A stretch of DNA of 34,968 nucleotides from positions 1-34,968 of the forward strand of contig CALSCO010000461.1 in assembly GCA_943704415.1 (NCBI GenBank), written 5' to 3'. The stretch's first letter is position 1. Each line of letters starts with the position of its first letter. Shown in pieces: positions 7,289-20,969 of this stretch. The position numbers were made by a program, and so were the translations under genes. The notes beneath the pieces were generated by a model, which saw only the letters and a program-made list of their open reading frames with translations, did no database searches and was not told the origin of the DNA. The DNA is from Parvularia atlantis. Lineage: Eukaryota.

Positions 7289-9413
7289 ATGCCGCGCGAG
7301 ATCATCACGGTGCAGGCGGGCCAGTGCGGCAACCAGGGTGCGGCGGCCCACAACACTCGCACAGTGAGGGCTGACGCGGCGCGGCGCACGGCAGTCGGCA
7401 GCGAGTTCTGGAAGCACCTGTGCGCCGAGCACGGCCTCGACAGCAACGGCAAGCTCAAGCCGGGCGCGCACGACGGCCAGGACCGCAAGGACGTGTTCTT
7501 CTACCAGGCACGGCGTGTGCGCACAGGCGCGTGTGCCCATGCTGAGCGTGGTGCGCATGCAGGCCGACGACGGGCAGTACATCCCGCGCGCCGTCCTGGT
7601 TGACCTCGAGCCGCGCGTGCGCACGACGACGCCGAGCCCGCGCCGCCTCACCGTCGCGGCCCGCAGGTGATCAACCAGATCATGTCGGGGCCGTACGCGC
7701 GCCTGTACAACCCAGAGAACGTGTTCATCGGCAAGGAGGGCGGCGGCGCGGGCAACAACTGGGCCGAGGGCTACGGCAAGATGGACGAGGCCATCCTCGA
7801 GATCATCGACCGCGAGGCCGACGGCAGCGACAGCCTCGAGGTGCGTGAAGGGGGGGCCGAAGCCTCGCGCGATCGCTCCAGCGCGACGGCGCGGCCGCCA
7901 GGGCTTCACGCTGTGCCACTCGATCGCCGGCGGCACGGGCTCGGGCCTCGGCTCGCATCTGCTCGAGAAGCTCAACGACCGCTACCCGAAGAAGCTCGTG
8001 CGTGCTGCAGCGGACGACAGACGGCCGCACTTGCACGTGGTGGCCAACGCCCTCGCGCAGATCCAGACGTACTCGGTCTTCCCGAACGAGTCGCAGAACC
8101 AGAGCGACACCGTCGTGCAGCCGTACAACGCCATCCTCACGCTCAAGCGGCTCATCCTCAACACGGACTGCGTGGTGCGTGCGTGGTGCACGTCGGTGTA
8201 TGCGCTTCGCTTGACGCAGCGCGCAGATGGTGCTCGACAATATGGCCCTCGACGCCGTGTCCATCTCGCAGCTCAACATGGCCCAGCCCACGCTCGCCCA
8301 GACAAATCAGATGGTGCGCTGCGCAGCCGCTTCGCGTGGCGTGCATCGCTCACGTGGTTACTCGCAGGTCTCGACGGTCATGGCCGCCTCGACGTCGACG
8401 CTGCGCTACCCGAGCTACATGAACAATGACCTCGTGCGCCGCACCCCGTCGCATTGCTGCCGCTTGCGTCGCTGAAGAGGCATCGCGCCTCGGGCGGGCA
8501 GGTCGGGCTGCTCGCGCCGCTCATCCCGACGCCGCGCCTGCACTTTCTCATGCCCGCGTACACGCCGTTCTCGTCCGACATGGTCGAGGAGGTGCGCGCC
8601 GCGCACGAGCTGGGCGGCGGCTCAGTGCGCGCGTGGGCAACGCAGGCCAAGAGTGTGCGCAAGACGACTGTGCTCGACGTGATGCGGCGCCTGCTCAACC
8701 CGGCCAACCTGATGGTGTGTTGCAGGCCCTGCCGTGCAAGGCTGATGTGCCGCGGGCCAGGTCAACGCGCCCACGGGGCGGCACGGGCGGTACATCTCCG
8801 TGCTCAACATAATCCAGGGCGAGACCGACCCGACGCAGGTGCCCGCACCCGCTCTCGTCGCGACCGGGCTGAGCGTGTGCGCACGCACACAGGTGCACAA
8901 GAGCCTGCAGCGGATCCGCGACCGCAAGCTGGCCAACTTCATCCCATGGGGCCCCGCGTCGATCCAGGTGCCGTCTCACGGTGCTAGACGAGCCGCAGCG
9001 CGCTCAGCACCCCCGACGCGCCGCAGGTCGTGCTGTCGCGCAACAGCCCGTACGCATCCGACCCGACGCGCATCAGCGGGCTGATGCTGGCCAACCACAC
9101 GGCGTTTGGGATGGTGCGCACCTCGCTTCACGGCCGCCACGGCCGCCGCGGCCGCTCACCACCGCGACGGTGTACGCCGCAGCGCATCCGCAAGACGTGC
9201 GACGCGTACGACGTCATGCGCAAGCGCGGCATGTTCCTGCATCTGTTCAAGAAGAACGAGTCGTTCCAGATGGAGGAGTTTGATGACTCACGGTGCGCCG
9301 CGCCTGCAGCTGGCTGCGCGCCTGCCTGACGCCGCCGTCGCAGCGCCGTGGTCGAGGAGCTGATCCAGGAGTACGCCGCGTGCGAGTCGCCCGACTATGC
9401 CAAGGCGCCGTAG
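7289..9413 (+). CDS. TUBG1: Gamma-tubulin, multi-exon
   Basis: [77 protein letters not shown]; stop TAG 9411-9413. Confidence 0.97.
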
Positions 9414-9469
9414 CCAGGCCCCACCGCCCGCGCTCTGTGCCACTGTACAAACCAAGAAGATCGCCTTTC

Positions 9470-11675
9470 TCACATGCCCATGTACTGCCCAAACGCGCCC
9501 GCGTAGGCCATCGGGCGTACGTTCGGGTGGGGCACGTGCGTGAACGAGGTGATATCGCGGCGCACGGGCCCGTCCTTTGTGTCGCGGAAGAGCTTGACAA
9601 AGGCGCCCTTGTTGCCGACCTGGTCGCTGTGTGCGCGCACGCGTGCTTGTGTGTCAATGCCGCGCGGCGCGCACGAGGAGGCAGGCACCGCGCACCAGTA
9701 GTTGGGCGCCGAGAAAACCGTGATGCACTTGCCGCTGTGCTCAACCACGTAGCCTTCGTCCTTGACCTCGTGGCTGCGGATGATGAAGTCTGCACGGCAC
9801 ATTACCAGACGCAGATGGTGTGTGCGCCACGCACCGAGGTCGTTCAGCTCGAGGAACTTGGTTGTGACGTCGGGCCCAAACTGGATGCCGACGCCGCGCT
9901 TGCTCGGCGAGCGGCCGGGCTGCGTGCGAGGTTAGCAGGCGCGCGACACAGCGGTCACGCGCCGCACCATCGGCTGCGGGTCTGACCAGAGCATCTCGAC
10001 CATGAGGCCTGCGACGCGGCGTAGCGGTCACGACGCCGCACGTACTGCTGCCCGCGCGCGCAGGCACCTTCACTTGGCGGCTGCTGGAAGCGGTTGATCT
10101 GGCGCAGCTCCTGCAGCTTGACGTCGTCGCGGCTAAAGAGGCCGCCGTGCACGACCTGCGGCACACGGCCGGCGCTCAGCATGCGCACGCCAGCCTGTCG
10201 GGTCCACACCAGCACTTTCGACCCGACGCACGCCGCCAGCGGGATCGCATTGAACACTTCCTCAAATAGGCGGAATGCCAGCTCCGAGTACTTGGCCTTG
10301 ACCTCACCCTCGAAGCCGTAGACGCGGTTCATGTCGCTCGTCTCATGATTGCCGCTGCCGCGGGGTGGCGGACGGCGTGAGCAGCGGCTCCACACACGCG
10401 CGCGCACGAGAGGGGCGCGCACCGCATGATGTGGAAGTGGTCGGGGTAGAGGACCTTGTACGCGATCATGGTCGTGATCACCTCGACCGAGAAAGAGCCG
10501 CGGTCGACAAAGTCGCCGTTGAACAGCTGCGCGCGCTCGCATCAGGTCGACGTTCACCCATCATGCGCTGCGGGCAGCGCGCGTAAGGGTTCGACGGCGA
10601 GGGCTTGCCGTTGAGCTCAAAGATGTTGAGTAGGTCGTAAAACTGCCCGTGCGTGTCGCCGCAGACAGTGATCTGCCCCGCGCGCGTGCTCAGTGTGTAG
10701 CGCGCCGGCGCGCTCGGTGCGGCCGCGCACCTGCGTGCCCGCCTCGAGCGGCACGTCGACGAGCGACGGCAGCGCGGCCAGGATCTCCTTTGCTTTGAGC
10801 AGCATCTGCGGCGAGCGTGCGGTCAGCGCGCGCAGGTGAGGCCCACACCGCGCACCTTGAACAGGTACTTGCGGTGGATCGTCTTCTGCTGCTTCATGCG
10901 GGCGAGCACGGCGTCGACAAACTCGGCCGTGATCTCGCCGTCCATACGCGGCCCGTCGTACGAGTCCTCGACCGCTGCCGTCGCCGCTGGGGTGAGCGGC
11001 CGCGCGCGCACAGGGCCCGCGCACCGATCGCGTCCAGGTCGATCGTCTTGGACGGCGGCACAACGTCCTGCTCGCTGTCGATCGCCTGCGGGGCGCGCGC
11101 GGCTTGCGGTCAGCAGCGGCCACGTGCGGCGACCGCGGTCGGGCGCATCGGCGTTGCCTTCTCAAACTCGATCCGTCGCACGATCTTCTCAACCTCGGCC
11201 AGCTTCTTCTTCGCATCCGGGTCGCTGGGCGCGACCTTGACGACGGCGCGGAGGTCGCGCAGAGCGTCCTTGAACTTGAGCAGGCCCATGTGCGCGGTGG
11301 CGCGGCGGTAGTAGGCCTTTGTGGCAGCGACTTTAGGGCATGAACGTGGGCGGCACACGGCGCCTCGGGCCGCACCTTGACGTACGTCCGGTCCAGCTCG
11401 AGTGCGCGGTTGGCGTCGGCCACGGCGTAGCCGTAGTTCTCCACGCGCGTGTGCGCGAACGCGCGGTTGGCAAAGTACGCCGCGACGGTCGGGTTGAGCT
11501 CGATCGCGCGGTCGTACATGTCGATCGCCTTGGCAAAGTGGCCCTCCTGGAACTGCTTGTTGGCCGTGTTCTTGGCCTCCTCAGCGCGCGCACGGTCCTC
11601 GTCGGTCACGGGCGCGGGCGCGGCTGCCGCGACGGGCTGCGACGGCGCGTCGGCCGCGTCGTCTACGTCGGCCAT
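9470..11675 (-). CDS. PPP5C: Serine/threonine protein phosphatase 5 (TPR + PPP catalytic domain), multi-exon
   Basis: TPR repeats ([35 protein letters not shown]), [36 protein letters not shown] and PP5-type C-terminus HPNVRPMAY. Confidence 0.96.
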
Positions 11676-11710
11676 GTCTTTTGCCTGTCTCCCGGCAAAC
11701 CGTGCGACAC

Positions 11711-12547
11711 ATGGCCGCAGACGGTGCACCCGAGTCGCCTCTGTATGACCACATCGCGGACGCGTACAGCAGCGTGTCGCAGTACCTGCACGAGCAGCTC
11801 ACGCTGCCGACCGTCACGGCGCTGCTTGGCCCGGGTGGCGTCACGGGGCTCAAGATCGTCGACGTCGCGTGCGGCTCGGGCCCGCTCTCGCGCGAGCTGC
11901 GCCGGATGGGCGCGGCGGCCGTCGTGGGCGTGGACCTGAGCGGGGAGATGATCGCGCGGGCGCAGCAGGAGGAGACCGTGGCGCCGCTTGGGATCTCGTA
12001 CCATGGTGCGTGCTTCGGTGCGGCGCAGCCGACATGTGCCCCTCACAAACATCACACGTTCCCACGCTTCTCTCGCGCCCGCGCAGTCGGCAACGCGCTC
12101 GAGGTCGCGCACATCGGCCTGCCGCACACGGGCGAGTTTGACCTGGCTACGTACATCTTCTGCTTCGTCTACAGCCAGACGCGCGAGCAGCTGGCGACGA
12201 TGGCGCGTGAGGCCGCGGCGCTGCTGCGTCCTGGCGGGCGGCTCGTGGCGGTCGTGGCCAACCCGTTCACGATCGCGACCGCGCACGGCGACCTGGGTGA
12301 GTTCCGCATGGCGCGCGTGGTGCGCGAGGACGTGCGCGAGGGCGATGCGATCCAGATCCGCCTGGGCACGCCGGCCAAGTACGTCGAGTTTGACAACTAC
12401 TACTGGACGGCAGCCACGTACGAGGCCGTGCTGGGCGAGGCCGGGCTTGTGGGCGTGACCTGGTCCGAGCCGCGGCCGACGTTTGCGGTGCAGGCGGGTG
12501 ACACGCGCTGGCCGATGCACTCGTGGTTTACCGCGACGCGTGCGTAA
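11711..12547 (+). CDS. Class I SAM-dependent methyltransferase (one intron, 12006-12086)
   Basis: YDHIADAY, motif I IVDVACGSG, VVGVDLSGEMI, FDL, LLRPGGRLV; stop TAA 12545-12547. Confidence 0.88.
   Translation: MAADGAPESPLYDHIADAYSSVSQYLHEQLTLPTVTALLGPGGVTGLKIVDVACGSGPLSRELRRMGAAAVVGVDLSGEMIARAQQEETVAPLGISYHGACFGAAQPTCAPHKHHTFPRFSRARAVGNALEVAHIGLPHTGEFDLATYIFCFVYSQTREQLATMAREAAALLRPGGRLVAVVANPFTIATAHGDLGEFRMARVVREDVREGDAIQIRLGTPAKYVEFDNYYWTAATYEAVLGEAGLVGVTWSEPRPTFAVQAGDTRWPMHSWFTATRA

Positions 12548-12553: not shown

Positions 12554-12608
<55 letters not shown>
12554..12608. repeat. (GT)n microsatellite
   Basis: Perfect GT dinucleotide run just after the methyltransferase stop codon. Confidence 0.97.
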
Positions 12609-12609
<1 letters not shown>

Positions 12610-12720
12610 TGCTGAGCCTTGTACTCTCAGTCGCCACGCTCGCCCGCACTGTGCACCACTCAACTGCAATCATGAGCCTTTACCAGGCCTCCGAGAAGTG
12701 TGTGAGCCTTCCCAGACCCA

Positions 12721-12824
12721 GCGGTCTAAGGCGTCCGTTTCAGGAAACTGAATCTACGGATCCGAAAGGGCACGAGTTCGAATCTCGTCGTCATCAGTAT
12801 CATAAACCTTGGTGACGTGGCCGA
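12721..12824 (+). tRNA. trnL-CAG: Permuted tRNA-Leu(CAG): 3' part (nt 15-73) at 12721-12796 with a 10-nt intron at 12745-12754; 5' part (nt 1-14) at 12811-12824
   Basis: GCGGTCTAAGGCG D-loop/stem; anticodon stem TCCGT/ACGGA with TT-CAG-G; variable arm CC-GAAA-GG; T arm ACGAG-TTCGAAT-CTCGT; acceptor 3' strand CGTCATC+A. The matching 5' strand GGTGACG-TG-GCCGA lies 14 nt downstream, not upstream. Confidence 0.88.
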
Positions 12825-12839
12825 ATGGGATGTGCCGCA

Positions 12840-12852
12840 TTTTTTTTTTTTT
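12840..12852 (+). terminator. RNA polymerase III oligo-T terminator
   Basis: T13 run 15 nt after the tRNA 5' fragment; no T4 run occurs between the two tRNA fragments. Confidence 0.75.
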
Positions 12853-12895
12853 CTCTTTTTCTTTCTGTCTCGTCCATGCGCGCACGATTGTGCCC

Positions 12896-12937
12896 CCGCT
12901 CGTCTCGCCGCTCGTCTTGCCGCTCGTCTCGCCGCTC
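12896..12937. repeat. 12-bp tandem repeat CCGCTCGTCT(C/T)G x3.5
   Basis: Read directly from the intergenic sequence upstream of the GH31 gene. Confidence 0.85.
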
Positions 12938-13032
12938 TTGCTCGCAATCGGCGCTGCCGCTGCCACGTGACGCGCCATCGATGATCCACGTGGCCCACAC
13001 TTTCCCCGCGTCACAGCACTACCTCACGCGCG

Positions 13033-16194
<3,162 letters not shown>

Positions 16195-16295
16195 GCCCAG
16201 CTCGTCCGGCGGCCCTGTCCTTTTTCATACATCACATTCTTTCCTTGTTTTCCTCTTTGGTCTTGCGCGATTCTTTTTTTTTTTTTCTTTTTTCG

Positions 16296-20969
<4,674 letters not shown>

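What the first reader, a model, noticed from the sequence alone, without database searches (positions are those of the whole stretch)
12721..12852. Circularly permuted tRNA-Leu(CAG) gene in an apparent opisthokont
Seen: nt 15-73 of a type-II tRNA (12721-12796) are followed by a 14-nt spacer (GTATCATAAACCTT), then GGTGACGTGGCCGA (12811-12824), then a T13 run. GGTGACG pairs 7/7 (one G-U) with CGTCATC, and GCC pairs with GGC of the D stem. Joining the two parts gives the classic Leu D arm GCCGAGCGGTCTAAGGC. The bases where nt 1-7 would normally lie (CCTTCCC) cannot form the acceptor stem. Known: permuted tRNA genes maturing via a circular intermediate are described in Cyanidioschyzon merolae, some prasinophyte algae, chlorarachniophytes and the archaeon Thermofilum; I know of none from opisthokonts. 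Inference: this is a functional permuted gene that standard tRNA scanners would miss or call a pseudogene.
Basis: partly seen in the sequence, partly recalled or inferred. Interest (0 to 1): 0.95.

Follow-up and report, generated by a model that had tools for sequence, protein, structure and literature searches.

The report
Back-to-front leucine tRNA, fungal relative
An amoeba-like relative of fungi (a likely nucleariid) carries a leucine tRNA gene written back part first, with predicted tRNA-splicing signals at both cut sites, so it likely works through a circular intermediate, a gene layout I found in print only for algae and one archaeon.

Summary
tRNA nt 15-73 (12721-12796) precede nt 1-14 (12811-12824) across a 14-nt spacer. 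Re-ordered and spliced in silico, this gives a clean 80-nt tRNA-Leu(CAG); in genomic order ARAGORN and Rfam call nothing. One unbroken contig of a public DNA run spans the gene with no differences, which argues against mis-assembly or an identical second copy. Three protein trees place the host among non-fungal Holomycota (nucleariid-like). Against: the central helix has a mismatch and is not the lowest-energy fold; no RNA contig covers the locus; no homologue was found in 57 pattern matches elsewhere. Best reading (about 0.78): a working permuted gene with a junction (14/15) missing from the published list, in a supergroup with no report in my searches. This scan has noted permuted tRNA candidates before in diatoms and unidentified protists (unchecked notes), none at this junction or in an opisthokont.

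The parts
12700..12714 (+). Leader arm that pairs with the trailer; 12710-12714 is one strand of the outer helix h' of the BHB-like motif
   Evidence: 5 contiguous pairs with 12826-12830; pair probabilities 0.92 and 0.97 for two outer pairs tested, 0.33 for the innermost; leader/trailer duplex -13.8 kcal/mol, 2.4% of 5000 shuffles as good
12715..12721 (+). Central helix strand H (12715-12718) and 3-nt bulge (12719-12721); predicted cut between 12720 and 12721
   Evidence: 3 of 4 pairs with 12819-12822; the only register of 14 with 3 or more H pairs, and with a 5-bp h'; not part of the lowest-energy fold
12714..12724 (+). Degenerate A box rebuilt from leader plus nt 15-19, in the normal order ahead of the B box (inferred promoter element)
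   Evidence: 8 of 11 letters match the gene's own rejoined nt 8-19; A box = positions 8-19 per PMC3978253
12721..12744 (+). tRNA exon nt 15-37: D loop, 3' D-stem strand, 5' anticodon stem, anticodon CAG (12741-12743), G37
12745..12754 (+). 10-nt canonical 37/38 intron; N32-N35 pair with 12749-12752, 3-nt 3' bulge, U32 opposite the third-last intron A (hBH/BHL motif with A-I pair)
   Evidence: Of 9, 10 and 11 nt, only a 10-nt excision gives a clean tRNA-Leu(CAG) in ARAGORN; 0.8% of random 10-mers give 4/4 pairs; motif as defined in PMC10275265
12755..12796 (+). tRNA exon nt 38-73: 3' anticodon stem, short variable arm with GAAA loop, T arm with B box (12776-12784), 3' acceptor strand 12789-12795, discriminator A73; no encoded CCA
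   Evidence: (Rfam tRNA T-arm match, 13.9 bits, below gathering)
12797..12810 (+). 14-nt intervening sequence closing the acceptor stem; no T run longer than 3 between 12690 and 12839
12811..12824 (+). tRNA nt 1-14: 5' acceptor strand, U8, G9, 5' D-stem strand, A14; predicted cut between 12824 and 12825
12825..12839 (+). 15-nt trailer; 12823-12825 is the 3-nt bulge, 12826-12830 the second strand of h'
12840..12852 (+). T13 run, likely RNA polymerase III terminator
11711..12547 (+). Upstream neighbour: SAM-dependent methyltransferase gene, followed by a GT microsatellite (12554-12607)
   Evidence: Pfam Methyltransf_25, E 1.8e-13
13033..16194 (+). Downstream neighbour: trefoil-domain GH31 alpha-glucosidase gene, used to place the host
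   Evidence: Pfam; homologues; tree

Best explanation
This is a circularly permuted, intron-containing nuclear tRNA-Leu(CAG) gene with its break at position 14/15 of the D loop, in a likely nucleariid, and it is likely expressed as one RNA polymerase III transcript that the tRNA-splicing endonuclease would cut and close into a circle before the spacer is removed. Shown by sequence: the order of parts, the intact cloverleaf after rejoining, the intron with its splice motif, the leader/trailer pairing with both cut sites at 14/15, and the T run. Inferred: (1) Pol III starts about 20-30 nt upstream of 12721, using the intact B box and an A box rebuilt by the leader (the H strand must pair with the self-complementary GGCC, so it copies the A-box core), and stops at the T run. 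(2) TSEN cuts the relaxed HBh' motif after 12720 and after 12824, and the tRNA ligase joins A14 to G15, giving a 104-nt circle (94 nt without the intron). (3) With the D arm restored, the 37/38 intron is spliced in the ordinary ruler mode. (4) RNase P and RNase Z cut out the 14-nt spacer and CCA is added, giving an ordinary 80-nt class II tRNA that reads CUG. Likely origin: tandem duplication of an ancestor with a 14/15 intron, then loss of the outer exons.
For: ARAGORN calls the re-ordered, spliced sequence tRNA-Leu(CAG) and still does at -ps120, where 3 of 9 conventional Leu genes from fetched loci remain. It aligns without gaps to a conventional 80-nt Leu(CAG) gene in L039 (55/80), and its variable arm matches Leu(AAG) genes in L003/L005. 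The four stems are fully paired; U8, A14, G15:C48, G18G19, U33, G37, UUC and A73 are present. The BHB register is unique among 14 shifts; 219 of 200,000 random 11-mers do as well. The precursor folds with z = -2.5 (3 of 200 shuffles as good). The intron motif is canonical. One X1 contig covers 12612-12834 with 0 differences and is the only X1 contig laid there at 80% likeness. The flanks are not significantly like the missing tRNA parts (6/14, p 0.15; 6/15, p 0.20), so they do not look like fresh duplication debris. Host: the cytochrome c1 tree groups it with Fonticula alba and unnamed relatives (94/89); the AASS and GH31 trees place it sister to fungi (SH-aLRT 91 and 99). Eukaryotic TSEN can cleave a BHB without the tRNA body (10.1101/2022.09.02.506201; PMC4090602); C. 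merolae splices a 14/15 intron (PMC3978253 Table 1).
Against: No expression evidence: 0 of 4 RNA or possible-RNA runs laid (X2-X5) have a contig over the gene (contigs cannot show absence). The central helix has a C.A mismatch and no inner h helix. Its pairs have probability 0.001 or less, because the leader prefers to pair with the D loop (0.93); forcing H costs about 5 kcal/mol. There is no TATA box in 12612-12720, unlike C. merolae genes. No second example turned up in relatives, so no covariation test was possible. The X1 contig over the gene has depth 114 against 177-185 for most neighbouring pieces, which is unexplained, and X1 may be the window's own source. CUG could also be read by another Leu tRNA that I could not look for.
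Confidence: 0.78

Rival explanations
1. A dead relic: tandem duplication and decay, or a local rearrangement, left nt 15-73 of one copy next to nt 1-14 of another; it is not processed, and another gene decodes CUG.
For: Imperfect BHB that is not the lowest-energy fold; no RNA cover; faint likeness of the flanks to the missing parts (6/14 and 6/15); most eukaryotic tRNA genes with D- or T-arm insertions are taken to be pseudogenes (PMC4090602).
Against: No mismatch in any of the four stems and an intact intron motif. Both ends stop at the one register that forms a BHB. The X1 contig is unbroken across the gene, so no copy sharing 31 or more exact letters is evident in that run (inferred from how such contigs break).
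Confidence: 0.13
2. The gene works, but not through a BHB-cut circle. For example, the leader/D-loop hairpin of the lowest-energy fold guides a different cut, or the product is a two-piece tRNA nicked in the D loop, or the ends are joined between two transcripts.
For: In the lowest-energy fold the leader pairs with the D loop and the 3' cut site sits in a 4-nt hairpin loop. Standard eukaryotic TSEN is tuned to 37/38 (PMC3978253).
Against: 3-nt bulge geometry and a 5-bp outer helix in exact BHB register; circular intermediates were detected for both red and green algal permuted genes (PMC3978253).
Confidence: 0.07
3. Assembly artefact between two low-complexity runs (GT microsatellite, T13), or DNA of another organism joined into the contig.
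For: The locus is AT-richer than its neighbours and lies between repeats; its contig depth is 0.6 times that of its neighbours.
Against: A separately assembled X1 contig reproduces 12612-12834 exactly. Its unlaid end and the next contig's unlaid start would overlap by 30 nt (12823-12852), linking it to the GH31 gene (inferred from record offsets). Mis-joins would not create a BHB register.
Confidence: 0.02

Closest known systems
Cyanidioschyzon merolae permuted tRNA-Leu(UAA), type I (junction 20/21, intron at 37/38, 10-nt spacer) (PMC3978253 Table 1 and Fig. 2 legend)
   Same: Leu tRNA broken in the D loop, relaxed HBh' motif at the junction, extra canonical intron, short spacer, downstream T run, no encoded CCA.
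   Different: Junction 14/15 rather than 20/21; anticodon CAG; no upstream TATA; heterotrophic opisthokont host. C. merolae's own Leu(CAG) is type II (37/38).
Ostreococcus tauri tRNA-Ser(CGA), type V (15/16), flagged atypical in PMC3978253 Table 1
   Same: Nearest listed junction position; class II tRNA; similar spacer (17 nt).
   Different: One position later, no intron, marked as needing experimental confirmation; green alga.
C. merolae tRNA-Arg(CCU): permuted at 59/60 with an hBHBh' intron at 14/15 (PMC3978253, PMC3218864)
   Same: Shows that a eukaryotic endonuclease can process a BHB at 14/15.
   Different: There 14/15 is a cis intron, not the permutation joint.
Type II permuted genes of Mamiellophyceae and the Bigelowiella nucleomorph; type IV of Thermofilum pendens; permuted genes of Auxenochlorella (PMC12633428, junctions not seen)
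   Same: 3' part before 5' part, spacer at the acceptor end.
   Different: Junction at 37/38 or 59/60; photosynthetic or archaeal hosts. [quoted passage not shown]

Membership tests
Circularly permuted tRNA genes (Soma type) | 3' part upstream of 5' part on one strand, spacer of 1-74 nt at the acceptor end | tested here: met
   14-nt spacer; range from PMC3978253
Circularly permuted tRNA genes (Soma type) | Rejoined exons give a canonical cloverleaf with U8, R15:Y48, G18G19, U33, U54U55C56; CCA not encoded | tested here: met
Circularly permuted tRNA genes (Soma type) | Leader and trailer can form a BHB or relaxed BHB motif whose cuts fall at the junction | tested here: inconclusive
   HBh' geometry in the unique correct register (3/4 H pairs, 5-bp h'), but H is not favoured in the predicted ensemble
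Circularly permuted tRNA genes (Soma type) | T-stretch after the 5' part and no terminator between the parts | tested here: met
   T13 at 12840-12852; longest T run in 12690-12839 is 3
Circularly permuted tRNA genes (Soma type) | Circular intermediate and junction-spanning mature tRNA | not testable with these tools
   Only assembled contigs were available; none of X2-X5 covers the gene
Circularly permuted tRNA genes (Soma type) | Product is aminoacylated | not testable with these tools
   needs bench work
Published junction types I-V (20/21, 37/38, 50/51, 59/60, 15/16) | Junction at one of these positions | tested here: not met
   Register scan gives 14/15; list from PMC3978253 Table 1. Not filed under any of the five types.
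C. merolae-type TATA-driven tRNA genes | TATA-like box within 50 bp upstream | tested here: not met
   No TATA in 12612-12720; one TTTA at 12679
Canonical eukaryotic 37/38 intron (hBH/BHL) | N32-N35 paired to intron, 3-nt 3' bulge, A-I pair of U/C32 with third-last intron purine | tested here: met
   definition from PMC10275265
Host: Opisthokonta, Rotosphaerida (nucleariids) | Nuclear proteins branch with Fonticula or as sister to Fungi, outside Fungi and Holozoa | tested here: met
   cyt c1 94/89 with F. alba (not starred); AASS 91 and GH31 99 SH-aLRT sister to fungi, Fonticula absent from those two sets; lineage
Host: Opisthokonta, Rotosphaerida (nucleariids) | rRNA or multigene phylogenomic placement, with apusomonad and breviate outgroups | not tested
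   no rRNA found in the window; no named apusomonad or breviate among the rows used

The most novel reading that the evidence does not exclude
The sister lineage of fungi uses an undescribed type of permuted tRNA gene (junction 14/15). One 4-nt leader segment does double duty: it is the central helix of the splicing motif and it rebuilds the A box ahead of the B box, so the gene can use the ordinary internal TFIIIC promoter that other permuted genes lose. The host's TSEN would then process D-loop BHBs as archaeal and C. merolae enzymes do, and further hidden permuted or oddly spliced tRNA genes are expected in nucleariid genomes.
Probability: 0.4. Interest if true: 0.85.

Novelty: new variant of a known kind. 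Interest (0 to 1): 0.7.

Why it matters
In the papers I could search, permuted tRNA genes are reported from red and green algae, a nucleomorph and one archaeon. The 2014 review says most eukaryotes lack them and ties their survival to TATA-driven transcription and a relaxed splicing endonuclease. A working example in the fungal sister group would put the trait in a heterotrophic opisthokont. It would favour repeated recent origin, and show that the yeast/human-type splicing machinery, or a close version of it, can handle a D-loop joint in a natural gene. It would also mean that standard scanners under-count tRNA genes in early opisthokonts. The prediction is cheap to test by one inverse RT-PCR.

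Tried and rejected
ARAGORN and Rfam at gathering threshold on the window: 0 tRNAs; E-value mode gave only the T arm. No whole genome was held, so no census of Leu tRNAs or TSEN/TFIIIC subunits. A pattern for a 14/15-permuted Leu gene gave 1 viral, 43 metagenome and 13 prokaryote matches. None is permuted: 47 of 57 have 6 or more conventional upstream acceptor pairs; the best downstream score is 6/7, in a truncated conventional tandem (L052); most of the others are SINE-like or odd elements. The exact pattern would miss relatives with other D- or T-loop letters. Runs X3, X4, X5, X7 and X8 gave no cover of the gene; X6 gave two identical 151-nt records at 12873-13040 only: no evidence either way. 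Junctions 8/9 to 21/22 other than 14/15 were rejected (H pairs 0-2 of 4). ARAGORN's tRNA-SeC call on the unspliced rejoined sequence was rejected: it needs a 12-nt intron and a shortened anticodon stem. The idea that the 5' piece is only a promoter-type TGACGTGG word was considered: that word occurs twice in the window and does not explain the 7/7 fit to this acceptor strand or the BHB register. Cluster look-up of the ten closest unnamed proteins gave no names. The codon count had one block out of frame and was redone, where two further blocks with stops were dropped. PMC2779668 is not held.

Full report
Observation. The window holds, on the + strand, tRNA nt 15-73 at 12721-12796, a 14-nt spacer (12797-12810), nt 1-14 at 12811-12824, a 15-nt trailer and a T13 run at 12840-12852. 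In genomic order ARAGORN finds no tRNA and Rfam nothing at gathering threshold; Rfam's E-value mode sees only the T arm (13.9 bits). When the two parts are re-ordered in a script and 10 nt after G37 are removed, ARAGORN calls an 80-nt tRNA-Leu(CAG). Removing 9 or 11 nt gives pseudogene calls, and putting the natural upstream 14 nt in place of the 5' part gives nothing at default threshold. The rebuilt tRNA is still called at 120% of ARAGORN's threshold, where 3 of 9 conventional Leu genes from fetched loci remain (one of the nine was not called at all in that run). It aligns without gaps to a conventional Leu(CAG) gene in L039, 55 of 80 identical. Only 2 of 69,910 14-mers in the window satisfy the acceptor, U8, D-stem and A14 constraints; one is this locus.

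First, 12745-12754 is a canonical 37/38 intron: N32-N35 pair 4/4 with 12749-12752, the 3' site lies in a 3-nt bulge, and U32 faces the third-last intron A. This matches the definition in PMC10275265 (passages); 0.8% of random 10-mers give the 4/4 pairing. Second, leader and trailer form a relaxed bulge-helix-bulge (HBh'): outer helix 12710-12714/12826-12830 (5 bp), 3-nt bulge 12823-12825, central helix 12715-12718/12819-12822 (3 of 4 pairs) and 3-nt bulge 12719-12721. Cutting two bases after the central helix on each strand puts both cuts at 14/15. Sliding the junction over 14 registers, only this one gives three or more central pairs, and it has the longest outer helix; 219 of 200,000 random 11-mers do as well. 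These tests were defined after seeing the locus, so the numbers are indicative. Against: the central helix is not in the predicted ensemble (pair probability 0.001 or less), because the leader prefers the D loop (0.93); forcing it costs about 5 kcal/mol. The precursor as a whole folds with z = -2.5.

Is the DNA real and single? No whole genome was held. Six public runs hold words of 12612-16200. X1, which covers intergenic DNA, has one contig over 12612-12834 with no differences, and no other X1 contig lies on the tRNA at 80% likeness (depth flat at 114). An unbroken contig suggests that no second copy shares 31 exact letters with the gene (inference from how such contigs break); a more divergent Leu tRNA is not excluded, and the tool drops human-like records. 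Record offsets imply a 30-nt overlap with the next contig, which carries the GH31 gene. The depth is about 0.6 times that of neighbouring pieces, which is unexplained, and X1 may be the window's own source. X2, a probable RNA run of the same organism label, covers the GH31 coding region from 13133 but not the tRNA. X3, X4, X5, X7 and X8 do not cover it; X6 has two identical short records just downstream. So there is no expression evidence either way.

Host. The window is an intron-rich, 69% GC eukaryote. The best-scoring cytochrome c1 homologue with a plausible name is Fonticula alba (73%; a record labelled Closterium scores higher at 66% over 71% of the query). The tree of 44 rows groups the query with F. 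alba and unnamed relatives (94/89, below the starred level). The AASS tree (35 rows) and the tree of the adjacent GH31 gene (31 rows) place the query's clade as sister to fungi, apart from holozoans, amoebozoans and plants (SH-aLRT 91 and 99). Rows were subsets of the top 120 hits of each search; no named apusomonad or breviate was among them. F. alba is Opisthokonta, Rotosphaerida. The host is therefore most likely a nucleariid other than F. alba. CTG makes up 56 of 125 Leu codons in three open blocks.

Relatives. An exact pattern for a 14/15-permuted Leu gene matched once in the window and never in 100 shuffles. It gave 57 matches in viral, metagenome and prokaryote collections, none with 7/7 downstream acceptor pairs; 47 of 57 are conventional genes. 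These serve as a null set, but leave no homologue for a covariation test.

Mechanism. By analogy with the algal pathway in PMC3978253 (parts 1-6 of 11 read), one Pol III transcript would be cut at the terminal motif and ligated into a circle, then spliced at 37/38, opened by RNase P and RNase Z, and given CCA. Eukaryotic TSEN can cleave a BHB without the tRNA body (10.1101/2022.09.02.506201 and PMC4090602, passages). An engineered permuted tRNA gave functional tRNA in mouse cells (as cited in PMC2943599, passage; the original paper is not held). One point differs from the algal genes. The review says that permutation inverts the A and B boxes and that a TATA box takes over. Here there is no TATA in the 109 nt upstream, but a break at 14/15 leaves nt 15-19 ahead of the B box, and the leader restores 8 of 11 letters of the gene's own A box. 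The central-helix strand has to pair with a self-complementary tetramer, so the splicing constraint and the promoter constraint coincide. This is inference. The likely origin is the duplication-and-outer-loss model for an ancestor with a 14/15 intron (PMC3978253); such introns exist in C. merolae.

What is known. The review's table lists 34 genes from red and green algae, a nucleomorph and Thermofilum, with junctions 20/21, 37/38, 50/51, 59/60 and 15/16; none is at 14/15 and none is opisthokont. A 2026 review of photosynthetic organisms (PMC13578239, passages) and PlantRNA 2.0 (passages) name only algae and archaea. Auxenochlorella is a later algal addition (PMC12633428, passages); its Figure S1 was not seen and could contain other junctions. 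Searches for 'permuted tRNA' (40 of 74 and 33 of 37 listed), with 'nucleariid' or 'opisthokont', for 'Fonticula' with 'tRNA intron' and for fungal cases (20 of 45 listed) showed no opisthokont report in titles, abstracts or the passages read. Subscription papers, including Soma 2007 and Maruyama 2010, were not searched. Earlier notes of this scan report permuted tRNA candidates in diatoms and unidentified protists (unchecked); none matched this sequence, genome or an opisthokont.

Verdict. The layout is real and far beyond chance. It works like a Soma-type permuted tRNA gene, and it meets every feature testable from DNA except that its BHB is relaxed and not thermodynamically favoured. It fits none of the five published junction types. 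Probability that it is a working permuted gene with a circular intermediate: about 0.78. New variant of a known kind; interest 0.7, held back by the lack of RNA evidence and of a second example.

Noticed in passing
window 18436-19728 (+): The eRF1 (translation release factor) gene carries an in-frame 431-aa intein-like insert: starts with Cys, ends His-Asn before a Cys; Pfam Intein_splicing 48.9 bits, above cut-off. The top 10 of 34 papers for intein + eRF1 showed no natural case.
   Followed up: partly
window 12612-12834: X1 contig depth over the tRNA gene is 114, against 177-185 for most neighbouring pieces; possibly repeat-related drop-out or a second haplotype.
   Followed up: no
window 12812-12821 and 12962-12971: The tRNA 5' part is 90% complementary to a 10-mer upstream of the GH31 gene; E-box-like CACGTG words occur there (motif label recalled).
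   Followed up: no
window 12818-12828: The 5' part plus trailer still reads as a near-complete A box downstream of the B box (9 of 11 letters match the rejoined nt 8-19).
   Followed up: partly
window 21064 to about 23900 (-): Fused lysine-ketoglutarate reductase/saccharopine dehydrogenase gene; its closest unnamed relative cluster (P0122, 73%) is a 520-aa protein with only the saccharopine dehydrogenase domains.
   Followed up: no
L017 (match 87-191, - strand) and L051 (105-209, - strand): A tRNA-like element in Anaerolineales DNA whose 3' acceptor strand has no good partner upstream or downstream (4/7 each); possibly split, intron-broken or degenerate.
   Followed up: no
window 7290-9414 and 9470-11678: Intron-rich tubulin gene (gamma type by my reading) on + and a TPR-phosphatase (PP5-like by my reading) gene on -, with many short introns.
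   Followed up: no
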